63,865 nt of DNA, filler included, from Sluysia triapertura (GCA_046118255.1; 4 parts of 4 records of this genome joined end to end with filler, not necessarily neighbours in it), one strand, 5' to 3'. Numbered from the whole stretch's first letter, positions 9,702 to 41,069 are shown. Notes: a model not told the origin generated them from the letters alone. A program made the numbers and translations.

Positions 9702-9743
<42 letters not shown>

Positions 9744-10739
9744 GCGAGGTTGGCGTTTAATAAACTAATTGACTCACAATTGAAAAATATGTTACAGAGT
9801 AATTAAGTTTTGTTAAATTACGAAAAAGTGCATGATATATTTGAGTTAATAGATATGGTTCCATTGGAATTACTTATGAATAACGAAAAATTTGTTGACT
9901 TCTTAGTGGAACAAGTAAAATTTCCAAATCCATATTGTATGAAAGCTAAGATTATTTTGAAAACTATAGGACAAATGTGGCTGCAGAATGATAGTAATGA
10001 ATCTTTGCCAATTTTGTTAAATTATGAAGGTAACCTCCATGCGGTATAATTACCTAATTATACTACAGGACAATACGTTATGATGTTAGCGTGTTCAGTC
10101 TTTAATTTACTAAATGGTATCTGGTGATGGCTTTTTGTATTTTAAAGTTAACAAATTATTTTTGTTTATTTTTATATCAGTAAATATATCAATTAATATT
10201 CTCTTTAACAACAAATGATTAAAATTTAACATTAAATCAGTTAAGACAATAATAAAATTTTTAATTAGTAACCTAGGCTTAAGGCCTGTAACAAATAACA
10301 ATTTTAATGATACAACGAAGTTTAATAATTTATTTACTAAACAATAAAATGTTGGAATAAAACATAAATAAACTAACAATACAACAGTTAATTAGTATTA
10401 AATGTCTAAACTTTATTATTTCATTCTCTTTAGGATAAAAATGGGTATCGTTTAATAAATTAGCAATGTAAGAATTAGATCTTTTTATAGTCCAAATACA
10501 TACTACTTCGTTTCGGTAACAAGACTGCATCGGATCTTTACATGAATAAGTTTTTAGCATATTAACCCATTTAGGTAAGTTTAAATGTTAGTGGCTGCGA
10601 CGGTTCATAAGGCATGTAACAAAGTTGGATATCATAGTGATTATAAAACATAGTACAAATGGTGTGAATCTCGTCGTAGATTGTTAGACAATTTTTTATA
10701 GTTATCGTCTAATTTATAATGAAGTGCATATTTCACTTG

Positions 10740-10896: not shown

Positions 10897-11054
10897 TGTT
10901 AGACTTCGTAAAATAGACTGACCGGGGATCGAACCCGCGACCATCGTCTGCGCAGTCGATGCTATACCACTGAGCTATCAGCCCCGTCTAACAATTTCAT
11001 TTTTAATATATTCAATTATACTACTTGGCACGTTTTAGGCCTTTTACCCCAACA
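10897..11054 (-). mobile_element. Solo-LTR-like element carrying a tRNA-like gene (most complete copy)
   Basis: The minus strand begins TGTTGGGGTAAAAGGCCTAAA and ends AAGTCTAACA. Plus-strand flanks are GTAT/ATAT (3/4 TSD). Homologous copies at 17342, 22044 and 3865. Confidence 0.7.
10914..10984 (-). tRNA. tRNA-like sequence (possibly Ala-derived), probably not a functional tRNA
   Basis: GGGCTGATAGCTCAGTGGTATAGCATCGACTGCGCAGACGATGGTCGCGGGTTCGATCCCCGGTCAGTCTA. Good A-box (TAGCTCAGTGG), B-box (GGTTCGATCC) and 7-bp acceptor stem, but the anticodon arm has a mismatch and a 6-nt loop. Confidence 0.65.
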
Positions 11055-13399: not shown

Positions 13400-13620
13400 C
13401 ATAAATACACTTAGATTTGAATCTAAGAGGCCTATAAAACTTCTCATCGTGGCGGTGGCAAGTTTCTAATTTATTTTACGCGAATTTCAAAAGCTTTTAT
13501 GCCGCCGTCTGAAATAATGTGGCCAAAAAATGCGATTTTGGTTTTAATAAATGTGCATTTCTTTGGTTTTATTATGAGATAATTTTCTACAAGTCTTTGA
13601 AAAACTTGTTCTTGAGAAAA
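13400..13620 (-). mobile_element. Ty3/Gypsy reverse transcriptase remnant
   Basis: QVFQRLVENYLIIKPKKCTFIKTKIAFFGHIISDGGIK...IRNLPPP corresponds to the RT domain 6-7 pattern KPxKC.F....FLGH.IS..GI. Confidence 0.8.
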
Positions 13621-16600
13621 TATGTTTGATATAAATGAATAAAAAAATCTAAACATTAATTTTATAACAGAAAAGAAATCTAACAAAGAAATCTAATTGT
13701 TTACCCTTCGATATTGCTTATTAATTCGTTCAATGTATGATTTATGATACAACTGATTTATGTTTACATCATGTTGATTCTAATAGTATGAAAACATTAA
13801 TAAAATACTGAAACACTTCGCAAAATGTTTCATTTTTCCTATTAAAATATGTAGCTATTTTTACTATCATAATTCCTAACGGGATTATTCAAGAAATTCT
13901 TGATTTCAATCCGTAAAAAGCCATTTGTAATTTTGTTGAATACTTAGTCACTGAAACTACTTACTTATTCAAAACTAGTTACTAATTCATGGAGTAAAAA
14001 TCAGAGTATTTATTTTCATGTGAGAGCTCATACTCAGTTAATGACATAGAAAGTGGTGAAAAGATTAAAATAACAGATGTTGTTGATTCACAATCATAGT
14101 ATTTACTTTAATTTGACCAATGCCTTCATTATACGTTATTGAGATGTCAAAATAATTTGATGATATATTGTAATAAATTTCAGTATCCGTTGTTTCATTA
14201 TCAAAGTCATTATTAAGTTATATGTAGTCGTAACTTGGCCTGATGACAAAATCATCTTTATACGAAAATCATTGATGTGAATATTATCCACAGAATTAAA
14301 ATAACTACTTAAAAAGAATTTTATTAAGTATCGACTTTATTTGGCAACACTATTAATTATATTATAAGTTTAATCACTATAATAAACTGTAGCCCATTTT
14401 GCAATTGCCTCATCTTTTGTCCATGTTCTTTAGAATCGACTTTGTTGATTATCGCCATACTCTTACTAACAATACAAACAATTTAACTTTAACTTATTAA
14501 TCTTATATAATTTCAATATATTTAATTTTGCATTAAGTTTAAATTTATCACTTTCTTCATATTTAATTTCTAATAAATCTGCTTTGCTACAAAAGAATAT
14601 TTCATTTGTATCAAGATTAAAATTCTTCATTTTCATTCATTCGAATAACATCTCCGTCACATTTATTTGATTCAAATATATCATAATGTATTATTTTTAT
14701 TTTTTCATTTTCATTCGTTCTGTTTCGTTTGTAATTCTATGTTTGAAAAATCTTTTTTCGACACTGTAAATTCTCGTGTCCAATTTTTAGTCTTAATTTT
14801 ATTGACTATTGCTATATTTTTTACGTGTTTACCTTTATTAATAATACAAAGTTCATTTTCTTTCAATGTAAAACTGTTAATATTTTTAATATTTCTGATA
14901 TTGTAATTTATTCATGTTTTGTATTCAAGTTCTCGTAATTGTTTTGTATCACCACAGTTAAACATTACATGTTCATCGAAATTATAAAATTCTTCTTTCA
15001 CATTTATTCGAATTAAATTTCCACTATCTTTTTGTAGAAATACTTCCACAATGTCATCTGATCTAAATATTTTATTATTTCCTCGGTGTTCATTTTTAAG
15101 ACGTGAAATTATTCTGTTGAAATACGAATCAATTTATAGTTTCTGCTATAATCAAGCCATTTTCAATTATTAGAACGGAATAAACAACCGTTCTCATATT
15201 CTAAATAAAGTTTTCTTTTGTCAAATTTCGTTTTTCTTTTTGCTGATTCCATTTCATTTGTAAATTTTTTAAATGTTCCATTAAATACTGTGGTGAACTT
15301 ATAATCAATTATAAAAGCTAATACAAATGAATGCAAAAGAAATAATGAGAAATAACAATAAAAGGAGAAAAAAGGAGTAGGAGAATAGAATAGCAATAAT
15401 ATTATAACAATTTTCATATTATAATAATAAACAATAGTAATTTTTAGGTGGTAGTTGTATTTAAAGATTAACCTGAATATTTTCGTAATTATGATTGTAA
15501 AAATATGTCGAGTTTTTAATTGTCATGCTATTATTTGTATGATTTTTATTAGATGTGTTATGTTCGGCTGAACTTTGTTTGTGATAAATATGTTTTAGGG
15601 TTAAATATTGTTTTTGTGTTTGTTTATAAAGTGTGTGCTCGAGGGTTGTATCTGCTTTTCATAGTCTGTTTTGAGTTTCTCCTTTTTAAATTGAAACCTC
15701 AAGGATAGACTGTTGGATGATTGAAAACTATATACAATATACCAATTATTAGGAATTGTACGTTATCCTACGCCTGATAGGATACCACATTATGCTTTAA
15801 CAGATTGAGAAGCTTCTTTATCTATTTAGTCACCTAGTGGTATTCATTCTAAAGGACAACAAAACGGTAAGTTATAATAATAATGCAAGTATTTTACTGT
15901 TTCGTTACGTGCAAAATGTGTTTTAGCTGGGTTCACCTACAACTAACGGTTAATATACAATTAGCGATTTATAAGAATTTTTAAAATAAACGTATGTCTT
16001 GAACTACTTTTGTTTTTATTGACAATACTACCTATTCATTTTATTGTTCGATTGAGTAATTTATTTATTTATTTATTTCTTTTTTCGACTTACACTTTTA
16101 TGTTTATTTACGTTAAATCTAAACGAAGTTTATGACTAAAAACTTTATTCTAATGTATTTTCAAAACCAAACCACAAGTTTAACTGCACTTACTTTGTAA
16201 TTAAACAATTATTCCCACTCTAAATGCTGTGTTATTAGAGGAATTGACAATAATTACCGCGAATGTATTTGGAACCCAATAATATAATATACAGATAAAA
16301 CAATAAAACGATAAAAGAGTTATAATAAAATAAATACAATATTAAATATTGAGATTTCTCTTAATATGATAAAGTATATTTTAAAATTGATTTTAATACT
16401 AGATCTATTCTATTTGAAAGACATAAATGATTTTAATGGATTTTGATTATTATCTTATATAAGGAAAATTCATTATAAATATTTAACTTAAGTTTCTTTC
16501 ACAGCTGTTTAATCAATTTAAATAATTTAATTGTCTTGATCAATTTGACAATATCCTCCAAGTAATGAAGGATTTACAACAACTGCGAAGATACACCCCA

Positions 16601-18499: not shown

Positions 18500-19359
18500 T
18501 TGTGGTCTCAGTCATATGCTTTTATACCCAAGTACAGTCACATATTTATATAAAAGTCATTCGCTAATACTCTTGACATTGCACAACTTTAACTCATATC
18601 ACACAAATTACAAACCAAAAAAATAAATAAATAAATAAGAAAAAATATTCAACACAAATTATTATAATAAACTATTATTATAAATTATCAAGTTTAGCTC
18701 CTCTGATATCGCTTTTCTAATATGCCTCAACATCACCTCCGAAACATAATTACTTTCCATTTTCGTCCTCTTTCTATTAGTCTGTATGTTTTTCTACAAA
18801 TTCCCATTGTTTGTATTTTATCTCTGAAGATAAGGAATTCCGTGTTGAATAATCATCCTGATAAATCACGGAAGGTCAGTAATTAAATTGACAAGAATTA
18901 ATTGATATTGAAGAAATAAAACTCAGAGATTGTGGATCAGCCTCTATCGAAATTCAGATATCTCGTTCACGCGAATCAAATGAAAACTAGCAAGTATCGA
19001 CGATTTCTACTTTGTTAAAAATGAATATTTGTTAAAAATTATTGTTAAAATTACGAAAAATTATTTTCATTAGTTAGAATCTTAACATGACTTAACTTAT
19101 GTGTTAAAATATTTTTAAATATTAAAAACTGTCGTTTATCTTCAAATAAATTTAATTTAAAATAAAAATCACGAAAAGTATTAACACCAAAAACATAAAA
19201 TTTATTACCATTATTAAAAATTTGATGGTTCAACTTTACACTACGGGTTTGATTATTCCGAGCATATTTCGACAGAGTACTCTTGATACTACTAAAAGAT
19301 TTAAAAGAAGAATTATCAAATATGAAAAGGATAATCATAGAGAAATAATTAAGAAACAA

Positions 19360-21000
19360 AATCACCTGAAAGTCAACATCTTTGCTAATTTGAACAGGAA
19401 TGTTAAAAATGTCATAATCAATTATTCCATCTACAACATCTGCGTATTCTTTATCATCAGCTTCATCATCTGTTGCATTGGACTGTGCATCACATGATAA
19501 AATATTGTTAATGAGGATAAAAATGATTCCAACTGCATCTGAGTATTTCAATGGAACAATTAATTCCATAAGATAAGGCCATAAAACGGTCCTCATTGAA
19601 TTAACAGTACTACTGCATAACTGAAAAACTTTCATACAAAATAGACGTAATTGATCATTTGATACCTGGCCTTGAGATGATTTGATCGAAAGGCGAAACT
19701 TATTAGGTTCAGTTTTAGTACTAAGCACAATTTGTATAACAATAATTTCGGCTAAATATCAGCTAACTGTAATTTGACACTGTTTGACAAATTAGCTCCA
19801 TCATTGGAAGACTGTCCAGTCAATTGACGCAAACCAGTAATTAACTGTGCTCGTCTGGAAATCAGTTGGGCATCACAACTGCTAATTAAATGTCGCAATA
19901 CAATTAAAACTGCAGAGGCAACCTTTTCATTACTGGAACTAGTGGAACTTGATAAAAATCCAGACGAACTTTTACTACTTGAACCTGATGAGTTGCCTAG
20001 AATAACTGATACACCAAGTTTTTGAAGAAAATACATTATGATATTATCTGGATAAGCATTACAAAGTGAAGTAAATCCTCGTTTGATTTCATTTTGATTA
20101 CGAATCACATTCAATTGATTTTGATCGGATATGTCAGTTGGAAAGATAATTCTGCAATTGTTGAAACAAAGTGTTAACGATGACCTCAAAATGATTGGCT
20201 AGTATGGCAAATTCTATTACGAGTGGTCGTACAGAAGCTGAATCTGGTGTTTCTGCTTGACTGGTATTGAAATTGGTAATACCGCCTGAACCGGGAGCAG
20301 AATATTCATTTAAATTCTGACTTGTTAAATTCTGCTTGGATAATTTGTGAAAGTGTTTTAGTAACATGATATGACTCTGAATGTTTTTTATATTGGGCTA
20401 AAATAACCGGTCAAAGTTTATTTAAATGTGATTCAAAACTATTTCCTTCTAATATAAATACCATATTCTCGATTGCATCCATTACCGCTTTGCGAAGTTT
20501 GGCTTCTCTAGTATTAACCAATGATGTGATAAATATTTCAAACGCTGACAAAATATAACTAGAAAATGTGAATATATTAACATTAGAATCTGTAACTCGA
20601 TCTTTATTATCAATATATTCCAAAATCGATTCACAACACTGACTAAATGCATTAGCAATAACCATTTGCAATTGTCAGTTTTTGCTAATGAAAACAACGT
20701 TAACATTTGGATTATAACATCTGTCAAATAAGGAACCATTCCATAAGGATTTTTTGTGGGCATTGCACCATATGTTTGAATAACAAATATTTGTGGTAAA
20801 ACACTTGGTTGAATTTTTTCTGATAACGGATTCATTATTAATTGACAAAAATTTGTGCTTAAATGAACTAAAACGTCACTTGCCTCTGATTGCCATTCTG
20901 GTATAACATCTTTGCTATGCGTCATTTCTTCAATAACTTGATTTATTAAATTAGTTACAAAATCAGGTATATCATTCAATTCTTTTAATATTTCTTTCAT
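19360..21000 (-). pseudogene. MROH1: MROH1 (maestro HEAT-like repeat / HEATR7A) pseudogene
   Basis: Motifs EWQSEASDVLV, LAQYKKHSESYHVTKTLSQI, RNQNEIKRGFTSLCNAYPD and LWPYLMELIVP. Broken by a 1-nt frameshift (about 20662), an in-frame TGA (20411-20413), further frameshifts (about 20330 and 20150) and a deletion (about 19750). Confidence 0.8.
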
Positions 21001-21253
21001 TGAAGAAAGTTGTAGTGGCCAACTCCGTAAATTAAGACTTAAAACAATTTAATTAACATAAAATCTATCACAACCATACTCTACAACTACAATCATCACT
21101 CAATTCATTTCATAAAGCAACAATATACAACCTTAACATTTCACCAAACTACATCCAACAATAAATTAATCCATACCTTAACATTCCCAACTCAATAAAC
21201 TCTTACATTCATTTCAACAACTCAAAACACTCACTCATTAAATACCTTATCAA
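21001..21253 (+). mobile_element. G-poor retroelement leader fragment
   Basis: GAAAGT..GTGGCCAACTCCGTAA resembles 57726-57757 and is followed by an almost G-free C/A-rich tract. Confidence 0.35.
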
Positions 21254-26028: not shown

Positions 26029-28010
26029 ATGAATTTTTTGACATTTTTGTCTAAGCATTATATTAGTGAAGATTTGAAATTATTATCATATGGAACAACA
26101 GGTTATCGGCTGAAGGCAGATAAACTCTTGGGAATTACTGTTCGCATTACTATTTTAGGAGTAATCAAATCGATATTTGAAGTAAGTAAATATAGCTGAC
26201 ATTAAATTTAAAAAGAAACGTGCCATTGGATTAATGATTACTGCTTCTCATAATCCTGAATGCGATAATGGTATTAAAGTTATTGAATATAATGGAGATA
26301 TGATACCAAAAAAATGGGAAACTTTAGCTGTTGAATTTGTGAACTTTCCAAATGAAAATGTAATCGATTGCATTACAAATAAATGCAAAGATTTAAATAT
26401 AAATTTCAGTGATACAAGTAATTTAAAATTTTTAATATGATAATATAATTCAGAAAATGCAGTTATTTTAATTGGACACGACACCCGTAAAAGTTCACCT
26501 TATTTGGTTGACTTAATTAAAAAAACATTAGATTATTTAGAATCTAAGTATTTAATATTTAAGAATGTAACTACACCGCAGTTGCATTATTTTGTGAAAC
26601 AATATGTACGTTTTAATTTTTTTAATATTAAATTTAGAATTTCAATAATGAAAGTGATACTAAATCTTTAATGGAAAATTATTTTAATCGAATCATTGAA
26701 GCTTTTAATCGTGATAAATTATCAAATAATAAAATACCTGTTATTAATGTAGACTGTGCGAATGGTGTTGGTAGTTTACATTTAAGGCAATTAAAAAATA
26801 ATATATCTAATAATTTAATCATTAACTTATTTAATACATCTACAGAAGAGAATCTCAATGATAAATGTGGTGCTGATTTCGTCAAGGTTAGATTTTTTAG
26901 TACAAATTTTGAATTGTAAACATATATTATAATTATATATACATTCATTAAATCGTGAATCTAACAGAAAATGAATAACGACCAAGACATATTTAACAAA
27001 ACATCAGGTTTAAATATGAAACCATTTTGTTCCACGTACTTTCACTATTATCTACGCTAAGTAAAACCCCAATATGAATGAGTACACCGAAATTCTTCCA
27101 TTTTTAAACTCGTTAACCCTAAATTTAATAATTGTATTCAATGAAAATTCATTTTTAATTCTTCTTGTACACAAAACTTTATAACTTTAATCATGTGTTT
27201 TGTTAACATATAAGTTTTAAATTTTCACAAAAGATGAACAATATCATAATTTTCTTTCATTAAGTAAAACTTATCACGCTCCTTAATCAAAATATTTTCA
27301 AAAAACACTAATTTTAAAAATAAAATTGAAGAAATGATGTATGATTTTTTATTTAGGAGTTTAGATTACATTTATTTTTAATCTTTTCAAACCTAAACCT
27401 AAATAAAAATATAAAATTACAATTTTTGTAGGAAGGGTAGAAATAATATTTTAATATTTAGTGTTTGTGCTACACACACTATTTGATGTTTAGACTAATT
27501 TTTACGTAAAAATTATTAAATAAAAAAAGTAGATTACGTTTCTCCCTAAAACCGATAAATATTTTATACCAAAAATTATAATATACAAAAACAATAAAAC
27601 AGATGTGAATTTTATTATTTAATATAATTTAGTTAAACCAAACTGTTCCTATGTTATACAACGGTGATTCTCACGGATGCGCATTGAATATTTTACCTCA
27701 CACCCGATGGTGTTCTATAGATGGTGATGCAGATCGCTTAATATATTATTATATGCACGATTCACATTTCTGTATGTTAGACGGTGACAAAATAGCTGTT
27801 TTAATTGCACAGTATTTGTCTGAACTAGTATTTAAACGTCTAAACTGGTCTGATCAAGTCAGTATGGCTGTAATTCAAACTGCTTACGCAAATTCTGCTA
27901 GTACTGAGTTTTTACAAAATCAGCTTAATATCCATACAATTTGTGTTCCAACTGGTGTAAAGCATTTACATGAAGCTGCAAAACAATACGATATTGGAAT
28001 TTATTTTGAG
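26029..28010 (+). CDS. PGM3: Phosphoacetylglucosamine mutase, 5' five exons (26029-26181, 26216-26417, 26454-26605, 26638-26886, 27633-28010)
   Basis: The spliced frame is open and contains YGTTGYR, MITASHNP (phosphoserine), GHDTR, TTPQLHY, DCANGVG, DGDADR, QTAYAN, TGVKHLH and GIYFE. GT-AG introns of 34, 36, 32 and 746 nt. 3' exons not found. Confidence 0.93.
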
Positions 28011-29369
28011 GTATAAATAAATTAAATTAAATTACATGCAAATATTAAATTAATATTTATAGTTGAAAATAATATTTAAATTGGTATTGATTTATTTTGC
28101 CTGCGTTTATATATAATTGTGTTGATAGGTTGTTTGACAATGTTTAAAATGTGTTACATGTTTAAGTATAACTGAAAGAGGTTTGATAAAGAATATACGT
28201 CTAGAAGTGTAAACAGTGTTGTTTTTGTAATAGTAGTTAAGATGGAACGTGTGGATCAGCGCGAATCTTTCGAAAGGAAGAGGTTTAAGGTAAATGCTGC
28301 TAATATTGCTCGTCTTTGCTTCTCCAAATGAAGTTTGAAGAGAGTTTAATGTAGTATAGCTTAGTATTTAAACAATAATACATCCATTATTGTAGCTTAA
28401 TATCTTAACTATTATGCATTTACTTTTAATTTTGTAGGGTGTTTGAATATTATTAGTAATTGTTTTTAGAAGATTTAGTGAGTCTATCTGATGCCAAATA
28501 CAAACGATAAATTTACATCATATCTGATGAGCTTATACAACAGAAACCATATTTCAATGTAGAAAAATGCAATTGCGAAATTTTTATTGATAAAGTTTTT
28601 AAAAAATTTTAAAATAAATCAAAATTTTAGGAAAACCAGTTGCAATTGTAAATTAAGTTTGAAAGAAATTCTTTACTGAAAAACATAAAAATACACGTAT
28701 TTATAAATCCCAAATATATTTTTTAAAGGTTGTAAATAATTATTTTTATTTGTGAATTGATATTTTTATTTAAAATATTTTATATTTTATGCATTTTTAT
28801 GTTAGTATTTATAAGACATTATAAATATTATAAATACTATAAAAAAATTATTAAAATTACTATTCTTTAAGAATTATAATTACAATTATTAAAATTAAAA
28901 TTAATAATTATTTTAAAATTAATTCAAAAATAAGTTTCTAGAAATGAATTGTTTTAATAAATCAAATTTATAAATATGATTATTTATAGTCATAAGACTA
29001 TAAAGATACACAAAGAACATCAAAGCGACCATTTTGATATAGTGATCATATTGAACTCAGTGATTTAGTGATTAAGTGATCAAACTCAAGTTTCAAGTAG
29101 TTCCATCAATCCAAATATTCGCAACAACATTTTGATCTCAAACCTGCGATTAGAGAGATCGCAATTTCTAATTATCTTCTATATTAAGTAGTAAGTTTAT
29201 TTTAAATAATTTGTAGACTCGCAAGAGTTAAAATATCAACTTAAACTACTTAATTTTCAGTTGGTCATTAAGTCCAATTATAAAATAATACCAAAATCTA
29301 AAATCATTTTTTCGTTGACCCTTAAGGTCAATTACAAAATAACATTAGATGGATTGAGTCTTCGGGCTA

Positions 29370-29585
29370 GGTCTTTTTTCTTAACTAATAATACAGGTGA
29401 TGCAAAAGGAGAAAAACTAGGTCTAATCACTCCAGCCTTTTTATAGTATCGATTTGTTCCTTCATTTCTTTTTGGTTACATATTGGAATTCTATATGGTT
29501 TCCATCGCATGACTTTATCTTCTACTAATGGTATTTCGTGCTTAATTATAACTGAGTTCCCAATATCGTATTTATTATAGTATGC
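29370..29585 (-). pseudogene. Gypsy RT N-terminus (truncated)
   Basis: DIGNSVIIKHEIPLVEDKVMRWKPYRIP...AGVIRPSFSPFASPVLLVKKKD. Confidence 0.9.
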
Positions 29586-29928
29586 CTTTTCGATTTATCT
29601 GTAATAATATTAACATGTGTTTCTACACTATAATTAACGATTCGGCCCAATTTCGTACCAGTGTATAACCATTTATCCTCATTTGTATAATTGATCAATC
29701 GTTTGTATAATTTTCCTTCGCATATATTACAGATTTAGTCCGCTATAACAATGTCAATTTTCTCTTGGTTAATTTCTGATGCGATGAACATTATTCTTCC
29801 AGGCATAATATATGTGCCTCTACTTAGCAACCATAATGGTTCTTATAGAAATACATCGTCTTCATCTATAGTCCTACGTGAATAACTGTCCATTAATTGT
29901 GCTTTATCAAAATCTAATGCAGCACTCT

Positions 29929-30215
29929 TTAGTTGTAACAATATGTCCATTCCATTATCATATCTTCAGGACAATTTTTCATCACTCTTAGTTTTGCGTC
30001 GAATTTGCTTTGTCCTAATTCACAGTGTGCTTTCATTATACCGACTATGTGGATTGCATCTCCAGTAACACCTGCTAGGTGTGATAAATGCTCAGAAAGT
30101 ACCTTTAGTTCTTTATCAGAGAGAAGATTTTCATTTATCAATGATGCCACTCACCGGTATCTATCAGTGCCGAAATTTTCCTTCCATTAATTCTTATATC
30201 GACCATGGGTCGTTT
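29929..30215 (-). pseudogene. Retroviral-type aspartic protease
   Basis: RPMVDIRINGRKISALIDTG/(frameshift)ASLINENLL...LAGVTGDAIHIVG. Confidence 0.9.
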
Positions 30216-30419
30216 TGCTCCATTATAATTATTATTTGCATATGTCATGTATACAACATGTGATGACGGTGGTACCTCAGCCGGATATAATCGTTCCTTT
30301 TGATTTTCTTTTATTTCATTTTCTTTACTCTCAATATCGTGTATTCTCTGTATCACGATGTTTTCTTTTTGTTTTCTTTCCTTTTTTAAGGCGTTTATCT
30401 GTGATTTTACATGATGATG

Positions 30420-32233
30420 TAATAAGTATTTTGCTAAAAAGGGGGAACAACCTATTATTAGTTTCCACGTAAGTCCAGAAATTTTGTAAATTCCTACTAC
30501 CGAAAATACTTGTGATACTATTAGTGCTATAACTTTTATTAGTATGTAAATACCTATTAATCCGAAAAATGCTTGACCTAATGTTAACAACTACCCCAAA
30601 TGTGTTTTAAAGTATTCTGAGCTGCCTTTTTAAAATGATCTGGGCCTAATAGTAGCTCGAAATTTATTTGTCCTCCATTTTCTATTGTGATTTTATATAC
30701 TATGTCTGTTAATATCTTAGCCGTTTTTTTATGGGGAACAGAATTTCTTGCCAAGCGGCTTGTATGCCTTCTTTAGTATATATACCTGAATTTGGAATAT
30801 TTTTTGATGCAAAAAATTTAAGTTTTCCTTTTCATTCGGTCAATCCTATTATTTCAGGTGATTTATGTAGGAGTTATATCCGGAAGTTGTAATCAATTCT
30901 ATATTCCGGTGTCAATTGAATCTTATCATTTGGTTTTATCTTATCATTTGTAAATAATATTCTAGTTACGGGTTCTAAGTATGTTTGTATCTCACCATTT
31001 AATACAGGTAGTTCATTATTACATTGTTTCAGATCTCAATTGTACTTCTGCATTCTTACATTTGTAAGCAAATATAACCTCTTCCATCAACCTACCAAAT
31101 ACTCCTAAAGGTAGTAAAGGTGCTACTAAGTCTGGGTTGTGATTGTTATTGCAAGCTTTGTTCTCAATATTTCTCTGTTTAATTGGCAATCTCTGGCTAT
31201 CATAATTTGGTATATCTTTTCAAAATATATTAGGCTTAAATGATAGTAAAGTCTATCTTATTATTAAAATTTGTATTCAATCTTACATCTTTTGGTTACA
31301 CTCCTTTTTTCGCTTATAATATTGTTTTTTCAGTTAGGTATATCTCTTGATAATTGGTTTCCATAATTTCTTTACCACAACGGATTACTGTTCCTTTCGA
31401 TATAAATATTAATCCGTCTACTTCTTTAGTTGCCATTAAAACTGTTGGTGCTTTTGTTTCACTTAATCTTTTTCTTTGTAAAAATTCTGCATGTACTTGT
31501 TTTTTGTGTAAATCTTCTACCGGTAATTCATCATCTTTTTGATATAAATATCCAGAAACTAAGTTAAATTTTATTTGCTTTAAGAATATCAGGGAGTATT
31601 GTAATTTATTTAATTCATAAATTAAAGTCGATTCCCCGGTATCGCATCGCAACTTGTTTGATGGATTCTACAATATAATCGGGACATCACTGTGCCATTC
31701 TCAATATCAAAACTCATTATGATTTTAAACTTATTGTGTAAGTTTCTTGTGCAACTACATTGTGGTAAATTTTATCTTTGTAATCTATAGATCCTCTTTC
31801 ACGTGTTTCATCGGAATGTACGTTACCTACATTCCTAATATTATAAATTATTTTTGATTCCTTATTCTTATTTTGTCACCCTTATTTAAATTTATATAAC
31901 CAGTTTCAAATGCGTCTCTGCAATTATTCGGTAATATTTTAAAAATTTTTAGCACGTTTGGTAATTCTATAATCGAAGTGTGACTGGTGTCCACAGTACC
32001 ATGTCGCTACTGACCTTTTGGCATGCATTCTCTTACTAGAGTTGACTAAATTTCCTTCTTGATATACATTGAAGACTTGTGTCTCTTATTTGAACTCTAT
32101 TCGGCCTGGATTCTGGGCACTCTGTATCTAATAACGAAAATTTTCTACCAATTTGTGGATTACTACAATTAAAGGCCTTTATCCCGCTAGTTTTATTTAT
32201 TCCAAACATAGCTAATAGTATTACGAAGAACAT
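30420..32233 (-). pseudogene. Chuvirus-like (class III, gB-related) envelope glycoprotein, frameshifted
   Basis: Signal peptide followed by AFNCS...FSLLDTECP; WYCGHQSH; DCQLNREILRTKLAI..NPD..EVIFAYKC..QCNNELPV...YLEPVTRIL; C-terminal LGQAFFGLIGIYILIKVI...YKISGLTWKLI. These are collinear with recalled chuvirus G motifs (YDC, SLLD..C, YCGxHSH, GEVI...C, C..LPV..L.P.T.IL). Confidence 0.8.
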
Positions 32234-32333
32234 GTTATTCGTTGAACTATTTAATCTAAGTATAATATTGTTTAACGCGTTATTAAATAAATTTGATAAA
32301 ATATCAGATGATTTATTTTGTTTATTCTTTTCC

Positions 32334-33600
32334 TTAATTATATTTCTCGAACTTCCAAAGCTTAAGTTTCTTATCGATAAGTTCTATAATCTTATCTATT
32401 TTGTCTATAATGAGTGACTTTGCTCGGTCACATTGGTATATTACATATGCTAAAATTATTTTAACTATTTTATTATTTATACCTGACTTAATCTGTTTAT
32501 CTATTATTAGTTTATACTGTCCAGTATCTATAAAATTACTAATGTCCTTATCCTTATATTTATTTTCTATTTGTTTCACTAATTCTATTAGGGATAATCT
32601 GTATCCTTTCATTTTTCGAAGTACTTTCTTATATTTAACAAAGTCTGCAAATTTATGCGACAATAATGCATAAACTATATTCTTAGCATCAAAAGTACTA
32701 ATATTACCTGTATCATAATTTATTTTAGTCAATTCAATATTATTCTTGTGCAGGGGATGCGACAATCGTCGTATTTCCATTATATTCATTTTTTCTTGGT
32801 CGACCAGGACTTCTTTTTATAGTATTCGTTTCCTTATCATTAGTTTCAATGTGAGGGTTACTGTTTAAATCAATTATGTATTCGGTTTTCTTCATTATAT
32901 TTTCATCATTAATTTCCGTATTATTTGTAAGTACATCTGTATTATTTTCCATTAACTGTTTCATGTAATGTGCGGAGTTCTATCTAAATTAACACCATCA
33001 TATATTTTTGTAATAGCACAGGTTTATTTTTACGGTAATCATTGAAGAACTCGTCTGGTTCTAGCTTTCTATCATGATAATACTAGATTACATCCATTAT
33101 AGAAATATAATTCAACTTAATTATATCAATAATTTCTTCTACTATTGTAGTCACGGGTAATTCTATAAAAACGTTAATTGACTCATTAATTAATACATTT
33201 ATTTTCATTAGTGCACTGGGCTCTTTGACCCTTTCCATTTGATCAATTTTCCTTAACAATGTCGTAGCTTTTGCTTTATAAGAACTATTTTCTTGACTTA
33301 AAATCACTAAATTCGATTTTATACTTTGTCCATCAATCCAAGATATATCTGAAGTGAGTAAATTTTCCATAGTTTTATCAATATCTTTCGCTTGCGTTTT
33401 CACTGTTTAGAGCCGATTCGGAGTTGTTTACTTCTTTTTCTTTGTTAACTGAAATTATAATTATTTCGTTTTCACTAAAATTATCTTTTTGCCTATTTAC
33501 CTTTATTTCCTCTTCAGGTATTTTTATTTTGTTTTTATCATTTTTATATTCTCCATTTATCGGTACTCGATGGATATTATTTGTACTTATATATTCATCA
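32334..33600 (-). pseudogene. Unassigned coding region of the element, including an AT-hook
   Basis: Consecutive minus-strand ORF pieces (33083-33403, 32740-32964, 32334-32789); KRSPGRPRK. Confidence 0.5.
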
Positions 33601-34926
33601 TCTATTATTACTTGATAGAGATATCATTTGTATTTTTATTCCAATCATCCAAAATTTTTTCCGCTTTCTTGTTTTCTTCTGTTTTGATCTTGCTATTCTT
33701 TCTTTTTTCTTTATAAATTGTTCATATAAATAGTTTACGAATGTTTCATCTTCATCTTGTTTTCTCGTTAATCTGTTTTGTTTTTCTTCATCATTGTCAT
33801 CCAATTTTAACCTGTGGTATTCATACAGTATTTTTGTTTCATCTTCTGTCAATCTACCCCAACTTCTTCCATATCCATTTCCTTCATATTCTTCACCAAG
33901 GCTGTCATAATCATATTCTTGTGTTTCATAGTTATAATTTACTTGTGTCCTTTTATTATTTTTCTCATTAAACCTTACCTTTCTTGATGGAGCTTGTCCC
34001 TTTATTGGTTGATAATTTTGCATCCTACTTAAGTCTTGGTTAAAAGTATCTGATTTTAATTTCTTACTATTTCGTGCGTAATGTCTTTTTCTATTACAAT
34101 TATGACATACTTTTATAATTATTATTTGTAAATTCCTCATTATTCGGCCACCTTGGCGAATGTCTGCTCAAATTCTCTTGTTTCATTATAACTTATTGCA
34201 AATCCTCTTGATCTTCCTCTTAGATTATAATCATTTTTTCGTGTGTTAAAATTATTTCTCCTATAATTACTGGTATTATTATCTGAAAAAGACGTATTTC
34301 TAAATGTATCGTCTCTTAAATTATATCCTGGGCTCTTTTCTCTCTTATCATCATCACATACAAAATTTACATTATTCTTTTCTTCAAATTTAGATCTCTC
34401 TATTCCTCTTAATTTTTTGACTATCTCCTTAAATGATTGATTGTCTATTAAATTAACGTAGATTCTTAACTCCGGACGAAGTCCGCTCTTAAAGAAGTTA
34501 TTTCCTTCTTATCTTCTGGAATCTTAGTTCGGGCCACTGGACACTTGAGTGCGCATGCATATTCGTATACAGTTTCGAGAGGTTTTGTTTTATATTTAAC
34601 ATTCGTGTGTAGTATTTGCATTTGTAATCCAAAGAGATTTCTTCCGTGAAAGCGTCAACAAAAGTGTTCCAGTTAATTTTCTTTGTGTTGTCTATTTCTT
34701 TGTATGTTTGAATGGCAATACCTGTAAGATAATTTTGGATTCTCTTAATTTTCTCTAATTCCGACCAGCCATTAGCCTCACACAAGTTCTCTTCGGCTCC
34801 GTTAAACTTACGCATTTCTGGTAATACTACTGCGGGTTTTATGTCCCGTGCAAACTGTAATTCTTTAAATTCATTAATTGGTACTGACTTTTTAATGTCT
34901 TCTAATACAACTTTTATATCCTGCAA
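33598..34926 (-). pseudogene. Gag (capsid-like region and degenerate CCHC knuckle)
   Basis: KFNG...CEANGWSELEKIKRIQNYLTGIA...WNTFVDAFTEE; FFKSGLRPE; CHNCNRKRHYARNS. Confidence 0.85.
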
Positions 34927-34961
34927 TGAAATGCCAATATTTTCAAAAATGTTTCACGTTG

Positions 34962-34979
34962 GTCCCAATTCGGGCGCCA
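34962..34979 (-). promoter_or_regulatory. Primer binding site (tRNA-Lys)
   Basis: TGGCGCCCGAATTGGGAC, 16/18 identical to the canonical Lys PBS TGGCGCCCGAACAGGGAC, just upstream of gag. Confidence 0.85.
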
Positions 34980-35419
34980 AATTTTGCTGAGTTTCTGTTT
35001 TCTTTTAACTCTAAAACTTATCTAACAGCAAAATAGATTAATATTCAGAGTCAGTATAATACTTAGTAATAGCGTATCTTTAAATAACGTGAAAATATGC
35101 GTTATTTTACTTCAATGTGCGTTACAAGTAATTCGTGGAAAAATACTGTGTGGAGGGCGAAAATTGTTTTATTTTATACAATTTATTATTATTTGTTTTT
35201 AAACTTTTATAAAAGATTGGAATTAGACAAACTATAATTAAACAAAAACGATTTAAAAATATTTTTATTATATTTAACAAAATAGGCGTAAGGCCTGTGA
35301 AAATTAGCAAATTCAACATTAAAACAAAATTTAACACGTTAACGAAATTTGTTGTTTTATTAATAAAATTTAAGCAATAAAAAAACAAGAAAAATGTTAA
35401 TAACAATAAATAAATTAGA

Positions 35420-35855
35420 TTACCATCATCAATATTAAAATTGTAGTTCGGGACGTGCACCTTCGTTGGAATAACCGATGTAAATATGTGACAACATTGA
35501 CTATGATATACTTTATTCAAAATGGTTATCATTCCTTTTAAATAGGAATATCCACAATTGGAATCATGTCGAGGATCATTATATACCGTAGTTTTGTCTA
35601 TGGGACATGTTGTTTTATCACGAAATACGCATGTAGAAATACATATTATTTTGGAAAGATTATATTTACAAAGTATAAAACATTGTCATTAATTTTTGTA
35701 TTATCTCTAGAAAGATCAAAATCATTCTTCATGTTATTGTACAGACCACCAACTTTAGCAGCTAGATGAATAGTTGGTTTATATTTCATAAATAACTCTT
35801 TGCGTTCTTGTATATTTTTTAATTCGGCATCTCTGGAACTACAAAACATGTATAG
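35420..35855 (-). pseudogene. GFUS: GDP-L-fucose synthase fragment (frameshifted)
   Basis: SSRDAEL...KPTIHLAAKVGGLYNNMK..INDNVL/(frameshift)CISTCVFRDKTTCPID..SNCGYSYLKGMI..FTSVIPT..NFNIDDG then a GT donor. The N-terminal GxxGxxG motif is absent. Confidence 0.88.
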
Positions 35856-40275: not shown

Positions 40276-40787
40276 GTTCTGTAAATAATTAATTTTATAT
40301 ACAAATTCTATCATTTCGTAAAGTAACATGTAATTTTATATGAATAAATTTTTAACTACTAATACATAATAATAATTAATTTTATATACAAATTCTAAAA
40401 GTACATTCTATCATTTCCATTCCCATTCTACGAAATTAGAATAAATTAAAGATTATGAAAAATTTATAACTATATTACTTATTATTAAATGAATTTTACA
40501 TTATAATATATTATTATTATTATTATGAATATTATTTTTATTATGATATTAAATGAATATTATTAAATGAATACTACATGACAGAACGATTTCATACACC
40601 TCAGTCTAAATAATACATCATGATTAGTAAAAGCAATAAAAAGGTCATATTATCAAGTTAAAATCATGTTTATTCTTTCAAATATAAATTAACAAAGCAA
40701 GATAAAAATATTCATGGCTTAATTATAACAGTTGATGTTCAAGTTATACAAATATCTATTAACGTATTCTTTACGGCTCACAAATTA

Positions 40788-41069
40788 ATGGATGTTGATT
40801 CATTTGTCATGACAAATAAACTAGCATCATTAAGTATAGGCGTGTCTAATGAAAGATCAAAAACTGGCCATCTTAATTTTTTCTATAATGATAAACATTA
40901 CAAGACGGGTCTCTCTTTATATGAAACAACCCAATCTGGCAAATGTTGCAGATATGGCAATAAGTGTAGATTTTACCACATATTTTACAAAGTCAAAGAC
41001 ATCCTTGGCTATCGAACAAGTTTTAACGACCACTACGATAGAATCAGTTCGCTTGGCTATCACATCTGA
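40788..41069 (+). pseudogene. Degenerate TIS11-type CCCH zinc-finger ORF
   Basis: HYKTGLSLYETTQSGKCCRYGNKCRFYH compared with YKTELC...GxCxYGxKCxFxH; the first Cys is lost. Confidence 0.45.

What the first reader, a model, noticed from the sequence alone, without database searches (positions are those of the whole stretch)
29370..35126. Gypsy element with a chuvirus-like envelope gene placed between gag and pol (gag-X-env-PR-RT)
Seen: on the minus strand, a Lys PBS, gag with a CCHC knuckle, a glycoprotein of about 600 codons, then a LIDTG protease and a Gypsy-type RT start. The glycoprotein TM tail runs without a stop into the protease (ORF 30138-30590). Known: env in retroviruses and errantiviruses lies 3' of pol, and chuvirus-derived glycoproteins have been reported captured by BEL/Pao elements in insects. 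Inference: this is an independently evolved, potentially infectious Metaviridae lineage with a negative-strand RNA virus fusogen inserted upstream of pol.
Basis: partly seen in the sequence, partly recalled or inferred. Interest (0 to 1): 0.92.

Follow-up and report, generated by a model that had tools for sequence, protein, structure and literature searches.

The report
Dead Burro-like enveloped gypsy copy
This is a broken, cut-off copy of an abundant retrovirus-like jumping gene whose chuvirus-like fusion-protein gene sits between its capsid and enzyme genes, a real but already published layout (planarian Burro and related elements), so it is likely one more family of a known kind.

Summary
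On the minus strand lie a primer-binding site, gag, an accessory region, a full-length class III fusion glycoprotein (545 of 569 profile positions, in order), a transmembrane tail running into the protease, and the start of RT, where the copy breaks off. It is dead: 19 frame switches, 7 stops, an incomplete knuckle, no second LTR. Env is native to the element: 24 of 26 long relatives carry env and protease in one ORF (11 as gag-env-PR-RT-RH-IN), env and RT trees agree, and another copy in the same organism bridges env and protease. An intact relative folds like chuvirus G and herpes gB. The novelty claim fails: in-frame env between gag and pol was described for planarian Burro elements in 2019 (PMC6431247), and GAG-ENV-POL gypsy elements with gB-type env in flatworms, nematodes and bryozoans (PMC13524379). 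The accessory region matches the relatives' ubiquitin-like module and, weakly, their Bcl-2-like domain, as in Burro. This scan noted the same layout on other genomes (e1-8072000, e1-8074084). Likely mechanism: one polyprotein threaded through the ER membrane, Env's tail tethering Pol. Infectivity is untested.

The parts
34985..35126 (-). Putative 5' LTR (TG...CA, about 140 bp); inferred, no second copy to confirm it
   Evidence: Sequence; summed contig depth stays high up to the 35108-35424 bin and then falls; no partner in the window
34962..34979 (-). Primer-binding site (tRNA-Lys type from recall)
   Evidence: Only TGGCGCCC in 64 kb, just upstream of gag
34176..34953 (-). Gag capsid region, in two frames
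   Evidence: Profile of 14 relatives' Gag, E 1.5e-11; tblastn with P0009, P0018, P0019
34066..34107 (-). Degenerate zinc knuckle CX2CX4HX4S
   Evidence: aligns to the knuckle of P0005
33045..33406 (-). X2: helical plus ubiquitin-like module shared with relatives
   Evidence: Best of 438 window ORFs against a profile of 13 relative segments, E 1.2e-4; 0 of 500 shuffles reach its score; Pfam ubiquitin in relative P0007; no Pfam hit on the window piece itself
32791..32808 (-). AT-hook-like motif PGRPRK
   Evidence: similar motif before env in 7 of 26 relatives
32337..32789 (-). X3: all-helical domain just before the env signal, possibly Bcl-2-like
   Evidence: Top of 437 ORFs but E 0.15; 7 of 500 shuffles reach its score; AF2 pLDDT 50 and no Bcl-2 match. 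Relatives P0022, P0006, P0021 have a Bcl-2-like domain here
32183..32233 (-). Internal signal peptide of env with a small-residue (-3,-1) site
   Evidence: window T-S-G before IKAFNC; rule met in 20 of 21 relatives against 11% background
30420..32182 (-). Class III (gB/chuvirus-like) fusion glycoprotein, ectodomain and TM; broken by 10 frame switches and 4 stops
   Evidence: fold of intact relative P0022
30138..30590 (-). Open frame joining the env TM segment, a linker and the protease motif LIDTG (30167-30153)
   Evidence: a contig of another copy spans env TM and protease (table 8, record 6)
29876..30221 (-). Aspartic protease, one copy, broken
29573..29875 (-). Spacer between protease and RT, homologous to that of relatives (dUTPase-like in Burro per PMC6431247)
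   Evidence: the dUTPase label was not tested here
29371..29576 (-). Start of reverse transcriptase; the copy ends here
   Evidence: no RH or IN match in the window; 7 contigs of other copies run on past 29375 with letters unlike the window (table 7)

Best explanation
It is a decayed, 3'-truncated copy of a high-copy Ty3/gypsy family, likely a compact Burro-like (GAG-ENV-POL) element of a flatworm, whose intact relatives encode Gag, accessory domains, a gB/chuvirus-like fusion protein and Pol in one reading frame. Shown: the order of parts in the window, the env-protease frame, the single-ORF layout of relatives, the class III fold of a relative's env, and env/RT co-divergence. Inferred mechanism: the polyprotein is threaded like a flavivirus or alphavirus structural polyprotein. 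Gag and X stay in the cytosol; an internal signal peptide opens the ER lumen and signal peptidase cuts just before the conserved 'A(Y/F)(D/N)C' start; the env TM stops transfer, so PR-RT-RH-IN hangs on Env's cytosolic tail until the element's own protease frees it. Pol would thus reach the budding particle through Env rather than through a Gag-Pol frameshift, with Gag, Env and Pol made 1:1:1. The ubiquitin-like and Bcl-2-like domains would act on host ubiquitin and cell-death pathways (inferred from family names only). This copy makes none of this.
For: Env profile coverage 545/569 in order; 24 of 26 long relatives have protease or RT after env in the same ORF, 16 also have a CCHC knuckle before it, 11 run gag-env-PR-RT-RH-IN; Pol of P0003 best matches Ty3 Gag-Pol, E 2e-128; window env is 33-42% identical to these and sits inside their clade, SH-like 99; RT and env trees of 17 relatives share all starred groups, Mantel rho 0.82, 0 of 2000 permutations; P0022 model pLDDT 83, best viral match Tacheng tick virus 4 G E 2e-41, best PDB match VZV gB E 2e-13; signal site rule in 20 of 21; one strong hydrophobic segment at the env C-terminus in most relatives; 6686 contigs of run X1 lie on the element at summed depth 3,500-66,000 against 13-19 for single flank contigs, with no well-supported joint that skips env; Burro layout gag-Ubi-BCL2-env-PR-dUTPase-like; by eye the env domain I-II matches the six Schmidtea 'Platyhelminthes_C1a' rows.
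Against: Gag-to-env continuity cannot be read in this copy (broken). Host phylum was not fixed: the PGM3 search gave no close named relative and the relatives come from unnamed metagenome records; 'planarian' rests on AT content, the env likeness and unchecked scan notes. One search covered only proteins of 1651-5256 aa, which selects polyproteins (without a length limit, ranked the same proteins on top). X3 did not give a Bcl-2 fold. The element lacks Burro's size, MATH, BIR and ankyrin parts. The C-terminal hydrophobic stretch could hold a second membrane pass, which would put Pol on the wrong side; topology was judged by hydropathy only. The match to the Schmidtea rows was by eye, not computed.
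Confidence: 0.87

Rival explanations
1. An independent, undescribed capture of a chuvirus-like glycoprotein by a gypsy lineage unrelated to Burro.
For: Chary & Hayashi report that GAG-ENV-POL elements are not monophyletic; no Burro sequence was available to me for a direct tree; window env is only 33-42% identical to its nearest relatives.
Against: Shares the Ubi-like module, the pre-env helical domain, AT-hook and spacer with a clade whose members carry the Burro-type Bcl-2 and ankyrin domains; shared env motifs with Schmidtea C1a rows. Even if independent, the layout is in print.
Confidence: 0.08
2. A viral glycoprotein fragment (non-retroviral EVE) that landed inside one dead gypsy copy, the env-protease frame being chance.
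For: Chuvirus G EVEs often lie beside gypsy fragments (abstract of PMC10084718); the copy is heavily decayed.
Against: 24 of 26 relatives have the same fusion; env/RT trees agree; another copy bridges env and protease; env is as high-copy as gag and pol.
Confidence: 0.02
3. The breaks are assembly errors and the locus is intact.
For: Frame switches (19) outnumber stops (7); the assembly has gaps nearby.
Against: Contigs of run X1 agree letter for letter with the flanks and with 32856-33169 inside the element (table 8), though X1 may be the source of the assembly; 5207 of 6686 contigs differ by over 5%; the 3' half is absent.
Confidence: 0.03

Closest known systems
Burro / GYPSM1 giant gypsy elements of planarians (Jurka 2007 and Grohme 2018 as cited in Arkhipova & Yushenova 2019, PMC6431247, section 7 read)
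   Same: Env with mononegavirus-type hits in frame between gag and pol; ubiquitin-like module and possibly Bcl-2-like domain before env; spacer between PR and RT; thousands of related contigs; decayed fragments reported for Dugesia japonica.
   Different: Far smaller: gag start to RT start spans 5.4 kb; no MATH, BIR/RING, Smc or ankyrin hit; one degenerate knuckle; putative LTR about 140 bp; Lys-type PBS.
GAG-ENV-POL 'ancient errantiviruses' with HSV/gB-type ENV, Platyhelminthes_C1a (Chary & Hayashi, eLife, PMC13524379)
   Same: Same gene order, same env class, shared domain I-II motifs by eye with Smed_errantivirus_1-6, multi-copy.
   Different: A separate family (about 35-40% env identity to its nearest database relatives); that paper lists no PBS for the six Schmidtea elements and its main text has no 'polyprotein', 'in-frame' or 'Burro'.
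Nematode endogenous retroviruses (Sacco et al. 2022, J Gen Virol; not held; known through PMC13524379; the continuous gag-env-pro-pol ORF is recalled)
   Same: env before pol in a metavirus.
   Different: Nematode env rows in the eLife supplement (part 7 seen) look unlike this env by eye.
Anakin, mosquito BEL/Pao with chuvirus glycoprotein (Dezordi 2020, search listing only; passage in PMC12440569)
   Same: Chuvirus-like class III env on an LTR element.
   Different: Other superfamily; here Pol is Ty3-like and env precedes pol.

Membership tests
Metaviridae (Ty3/gypsy) | Pol order PR-RT-RH-IN with Ty3-type RT | tested here: met
   In relatives; the window holds PR and RT start only, collinear with them
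Metaviridae (Ty3/gypsy) | Two LTRs and target-site duplication | tested here: inconclusive
   Copy is truncated; no second LTR in the window; no genome held
Metaviridae (Ty3/gypsy) | tRNA primer-binding site after the 5' LTR | tested here: met
   tRNA identity recalled
Metaviridae (Ty3/gypsy) | Gag capsid domain | tested here: met
   knuckle degenerate
GAG-ENV-POL errantiviruses with gB-type env | env between gag and pol | tested here: met
GAG-ENV-POL errantiviruses with gB-type env | Class III gB-like ectodomain with signal and TM | tested here: met
   Pfam PF24664 on the window; fold on relative P0022; 10 of 14 conserved Cys kept in the window
GAG-ENV-POL errantiviruses with gB-type env | Sequence kinship with the Platyhelminthes_C1a group | tested here: inconclusive
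   By-eye motif match only; no tree with those sequences
Burro elements (strict sense) | env in frame with pol in one ORF | tested here: met
   ORF 30138-30590; 24 of 26 relatives
Burro elements (strict sense) | Ubi/SUMO-like domain between gag and env | tested here: met
   (through relatives' profile)
Burro elements (strict sense) | BCL2-like domain just before env | tested here: inconclusive
   present in relatives
Burro elements (strict sense) | Giant size (over 30 kb, ORF near 4,900 aa) with MATH, BIR/RING, ankyrin | tested here: not met
   Gag to RT start in 5.4 kb; no such Pfam hits; so filed as Burro-like, not as Burro
Burro elements (strict sense) | Planarian host | tested here: inconclusive
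   scan notes only
BEL/Pao Anakin | Pao-type Pol, env after pol | tested here: not met
Stand-alone chuvirus EVE | G with own boundaries or with viral L/N, absent from sister copies | tested here: not met
Infectious enveloped retrovirus-like virus | Particles that enter new cells | not testable with these tools
   No RNA or particle data

The most novel reading that the evidence does not exclude
The compact Burro-like clade is a family of true enveloped viruses that build the whole virion from one membrane-threaded polyprotein: Env's tail carries Pol into the particle in place of a Gag-Pol frameshift, extra protease copies (up to four, one after integrase in 8 of 15) process the chain on the cytosolic side, and a second, fast-evolving type I membrane protein after integrase (13 of 15 relatives, Ig-like in one) is the receptor-binding partner of the gB-like fusogen, as gH/gL or gD is in herpesviruses. 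The host of this window would still carry young copies of such a family.
Probability: 0.25. Interest if true: 0.65.

Novelty: new member of a known kind. Interest (0 to 1): 0.24.

Why it matters
As found, modestly: it adds a compact, very abundant family to a layout published in 2019-2026 and shows, on 26 database relatives, that env and pol form one ORF and have diverged together. The open question it sharpens is how a retroelement works when Gag, a class III fusogen and Pol are one chain; the compact relatives (2,600-4,000 aa) are easier subjects for that than 30-kb Burro. The second membrane protein after integrase and the repeated proteases in relatives were not in the passages I read nor surfaced by searches, but Grohme 2018, Sacco 2022 and the Burro1 function paper were not available to me and may cover them.

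Tried and rejected
No whole genome held, so no search for intact copies or LTR pairs. Three-frame Pfam scan of the whole element found only the protease. No second LTR or other copy by repeat and blastn searches. Host placement by PGM3 gave only 50-59% matches across fungi and animals; cluster look-ups gave no host names (P0017 sits in a bacterial MAG, surely misplaced). No RNA holder listed. ESM Atlas on X3: scores 0.90-0.91 to unnamed clusters, recognition below threshold; Atlas on the post-integrase protein did not complete. First Bcl-2 profile had one misaligned row and ranked X3 14th; rebuilt it ranked first at E 0.15. X3 single-sequence fold pLDDT 50; VIA best Z 7.0 to unrelated helical proteins, no Bcl-2 listed. 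P0029's Bcl-2-like stretch is by eye only (no hit). No furin-type site in 21 relatives' ectodomains. The RT piece at 13444-13650 was rejected as the element's continuation: 15.7 kb away, across host genes and gaps. In the env tree P0022, P0028 and P0029 were labelled 'upstream of pol' without a protease shown; five rows under 450 aa were dropped; one window piece was partly misaligned; FastTree only, midpoint root. Papers not held.

Full report
What is there. The minus strand from about 35126 to 29370 reads as one collinear retroelement in a 75% AT, intron-bearing eukaryote. A PBS-like word at 34979-34962 is unique in the window (its tRNA-Lys identity is recalled). Gag capsid pieces match a profile of relatives at E 1.5e-11; the knuckle has lost its last cysteine. 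Env is detected by Pfam PF24664 at E 5e-11, and 60-residue single-frame chunks cover 545 of 569 positions of a relatives' profile in order, against a best of 1.8 bits for 105 reversed chunks. ORF 30138-30590 joins the TM segment to LIDTG. Protease, spacer and RT start follow; RH and IN are absent from the window. Over 21 matched pieces there are 19 frame switches and 7 stops. No second LTR was found.

Is env part of the element? Yes. The TM-protease ORF found P0001, whose cluster holds a 3003-aa ORF with env, two proteases, RT, RH and IN. Two further searches gave 26 long relatives: 24 have protease or RT after env in the same ORF, 16 have a CCHC knuckle before it, 11 run gag-env-PR-RT-RH-IN. 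One search was limited to long proteins, but the unrestricted search ranked the same clade first and stand-alone glycoproteins of about 650 aa lower. The window env is 33-42% identical to the nearest 20 and falls inside their clade, apart from 84 other glycoproteins (FastTree, midpoint root, three rows labelled without a protease shown). For 17 relatives the RT-RH and env trees share all starred groups, Mantel rho 0.82. In run X1, 6686 contigs lie on the region, summed depth 3,500-66,000 across gag, X, env and pol against 13-19 for single flank contigs; the best-supported joints reach depth 113 and none removes env; one contig of another copy spans env TM and protease. Depth is no copy number, and X1 may be the window's own source.

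What env is. The intact relative P0022, folded on 94 rows, has pLDDT 83; best viral matches are chuvirus and chu-like glycoproteins (E 2e-41) and best solved matches herpesvirus gB (E 2e-13, TM about 0.3-0.4). The window's own env was not folded, as it is broken. Pol of P0003 is closest to Ty3.

What X is. Relatives share a helical plus ubiquitin-like module; window X2 matches it (E 1.2e-4; 0 of 500 shuffles). P0022, P0006 and P0021 carry a Bcl-2-like domain just before env; window X3 sits in that place and ranks first of 437 ORFs, but at E 0.15 with 7 of 500 shuffles as good, and its fold was uninformative.

How it likely works. A hydrophobic segment precedes env, with a signal-peptidase-type site in 20 of 21 relatives and in the window, and one strong hydrophobic segment ends it. 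The simplest reading is one chain: cytosolic Gag-X, luminal Env, cytosolic PR-RT-RH-IN tethered to Env's tail and released by the element's protease. The single ORF is shown for relatives; topology, cleavage, packaging and infectivity are inferred or untested.

What is known. Arkhipova & Yushenova 2019 (PMC6431247, section 7 read) describe Burro of planarians as Gag, Ubi2/SUMO-like, BCL2, env with hits to mononegavirus fusion glycoproteins, PR, dUTPase-like, RT in one ORF, calling it the first case of in-frame env between gag and pol. Chary & Hayashi (PMC13524379; abstract, first parts of sections 5 and 6, section 14, passages, supplement 1 rows and supplement 2 part 7 seen) list GAG-ENV-POL gypsy elements with gB-type env in Nematoda, Bryozoa and Platyhelminthes, six in Schmidtea mediterranea; their env rows share motifs with the window and its relatives by eye. 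Their figure supplements could not be read. Sacco 2022 and Grohme 2018 were not held. Also seen: PMC10084718 part 1 of 5, passages of PMC12440569, PMC13465017 and PMC11410931, Dezordi 2020 as a listing. Earlier scan notes reached the same verdict on other genomes and call this genome a planarian; I had the Burro reading before opening them and do not count them as support.

Verdict. The residual novelty lies in the relatives: a second membrane protein after integrase in 13 of 15 and repeated proteases. Interest 0.24.

Noticed in passing
relatives P0003, P0005, P0007, P0009-P0011, P0013-P0015, P0017-P0019, P0033 (after integrase): 13 of 15 relatives with sequence beyond integrase continue in frame into a signal-like segment, a divergent ectodomain and a TM segment: a second type I membrane protein; P0020 has an Ig-like domain there. 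Not in the window (3' half missing). Scan note e1-9082970 describes similar membrane units in this genome.
   Followed up: partly
relatives P0003-P0026: Protease domains are often repeated (up to four in P0008) and 8 of 15 carry one after integrase; the window has one.
   Followed up: partly
window 9735-10125 (+): Decayed piece homologous to the accessory region of P0017 (E 9e-13): a second, different family of the same clade.
   Followed up: partly
window 13444-13650 (-): Isolated gypsy-type RT fragment.
   Followed up: partly
window 35400-35850 (-): Broken, intronless epimerase-family piece (GDP-fucose synthase-like by recall; Pfam Epimerase E 0.02-0.05) just upstream of the element, at 10-25 times single-contig depth; may be cargo of the gene-carrying repeat of note e1-8589030.
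   Followed up: partly
window 29085-29370: A different high-depth repeat abuts the RT break and holds a short palindrome around TTAA; not the partner of the 5' end.
   Followed up: no
window 10914-10984 (-): tRNA-like unit with an odd anticodon loop; may be the tRNA-bearing repeat of note e1-9935073.
   Followed up: no
window 19051-21048 (-), 26186-28016 (+), 40662-41069 (+): Host genes: MROH-type HEAT repeats, phosphoacetylglucosamine mutase, a CCCH zinc-finger piece.
   Followed up: partly
P0017 (HBK71150.1): An intact element of this clade is filed as a hypothetical protein of a Flavobacteriaceae MAG: animal DNA in a bacterial bin.
   Followed up: no
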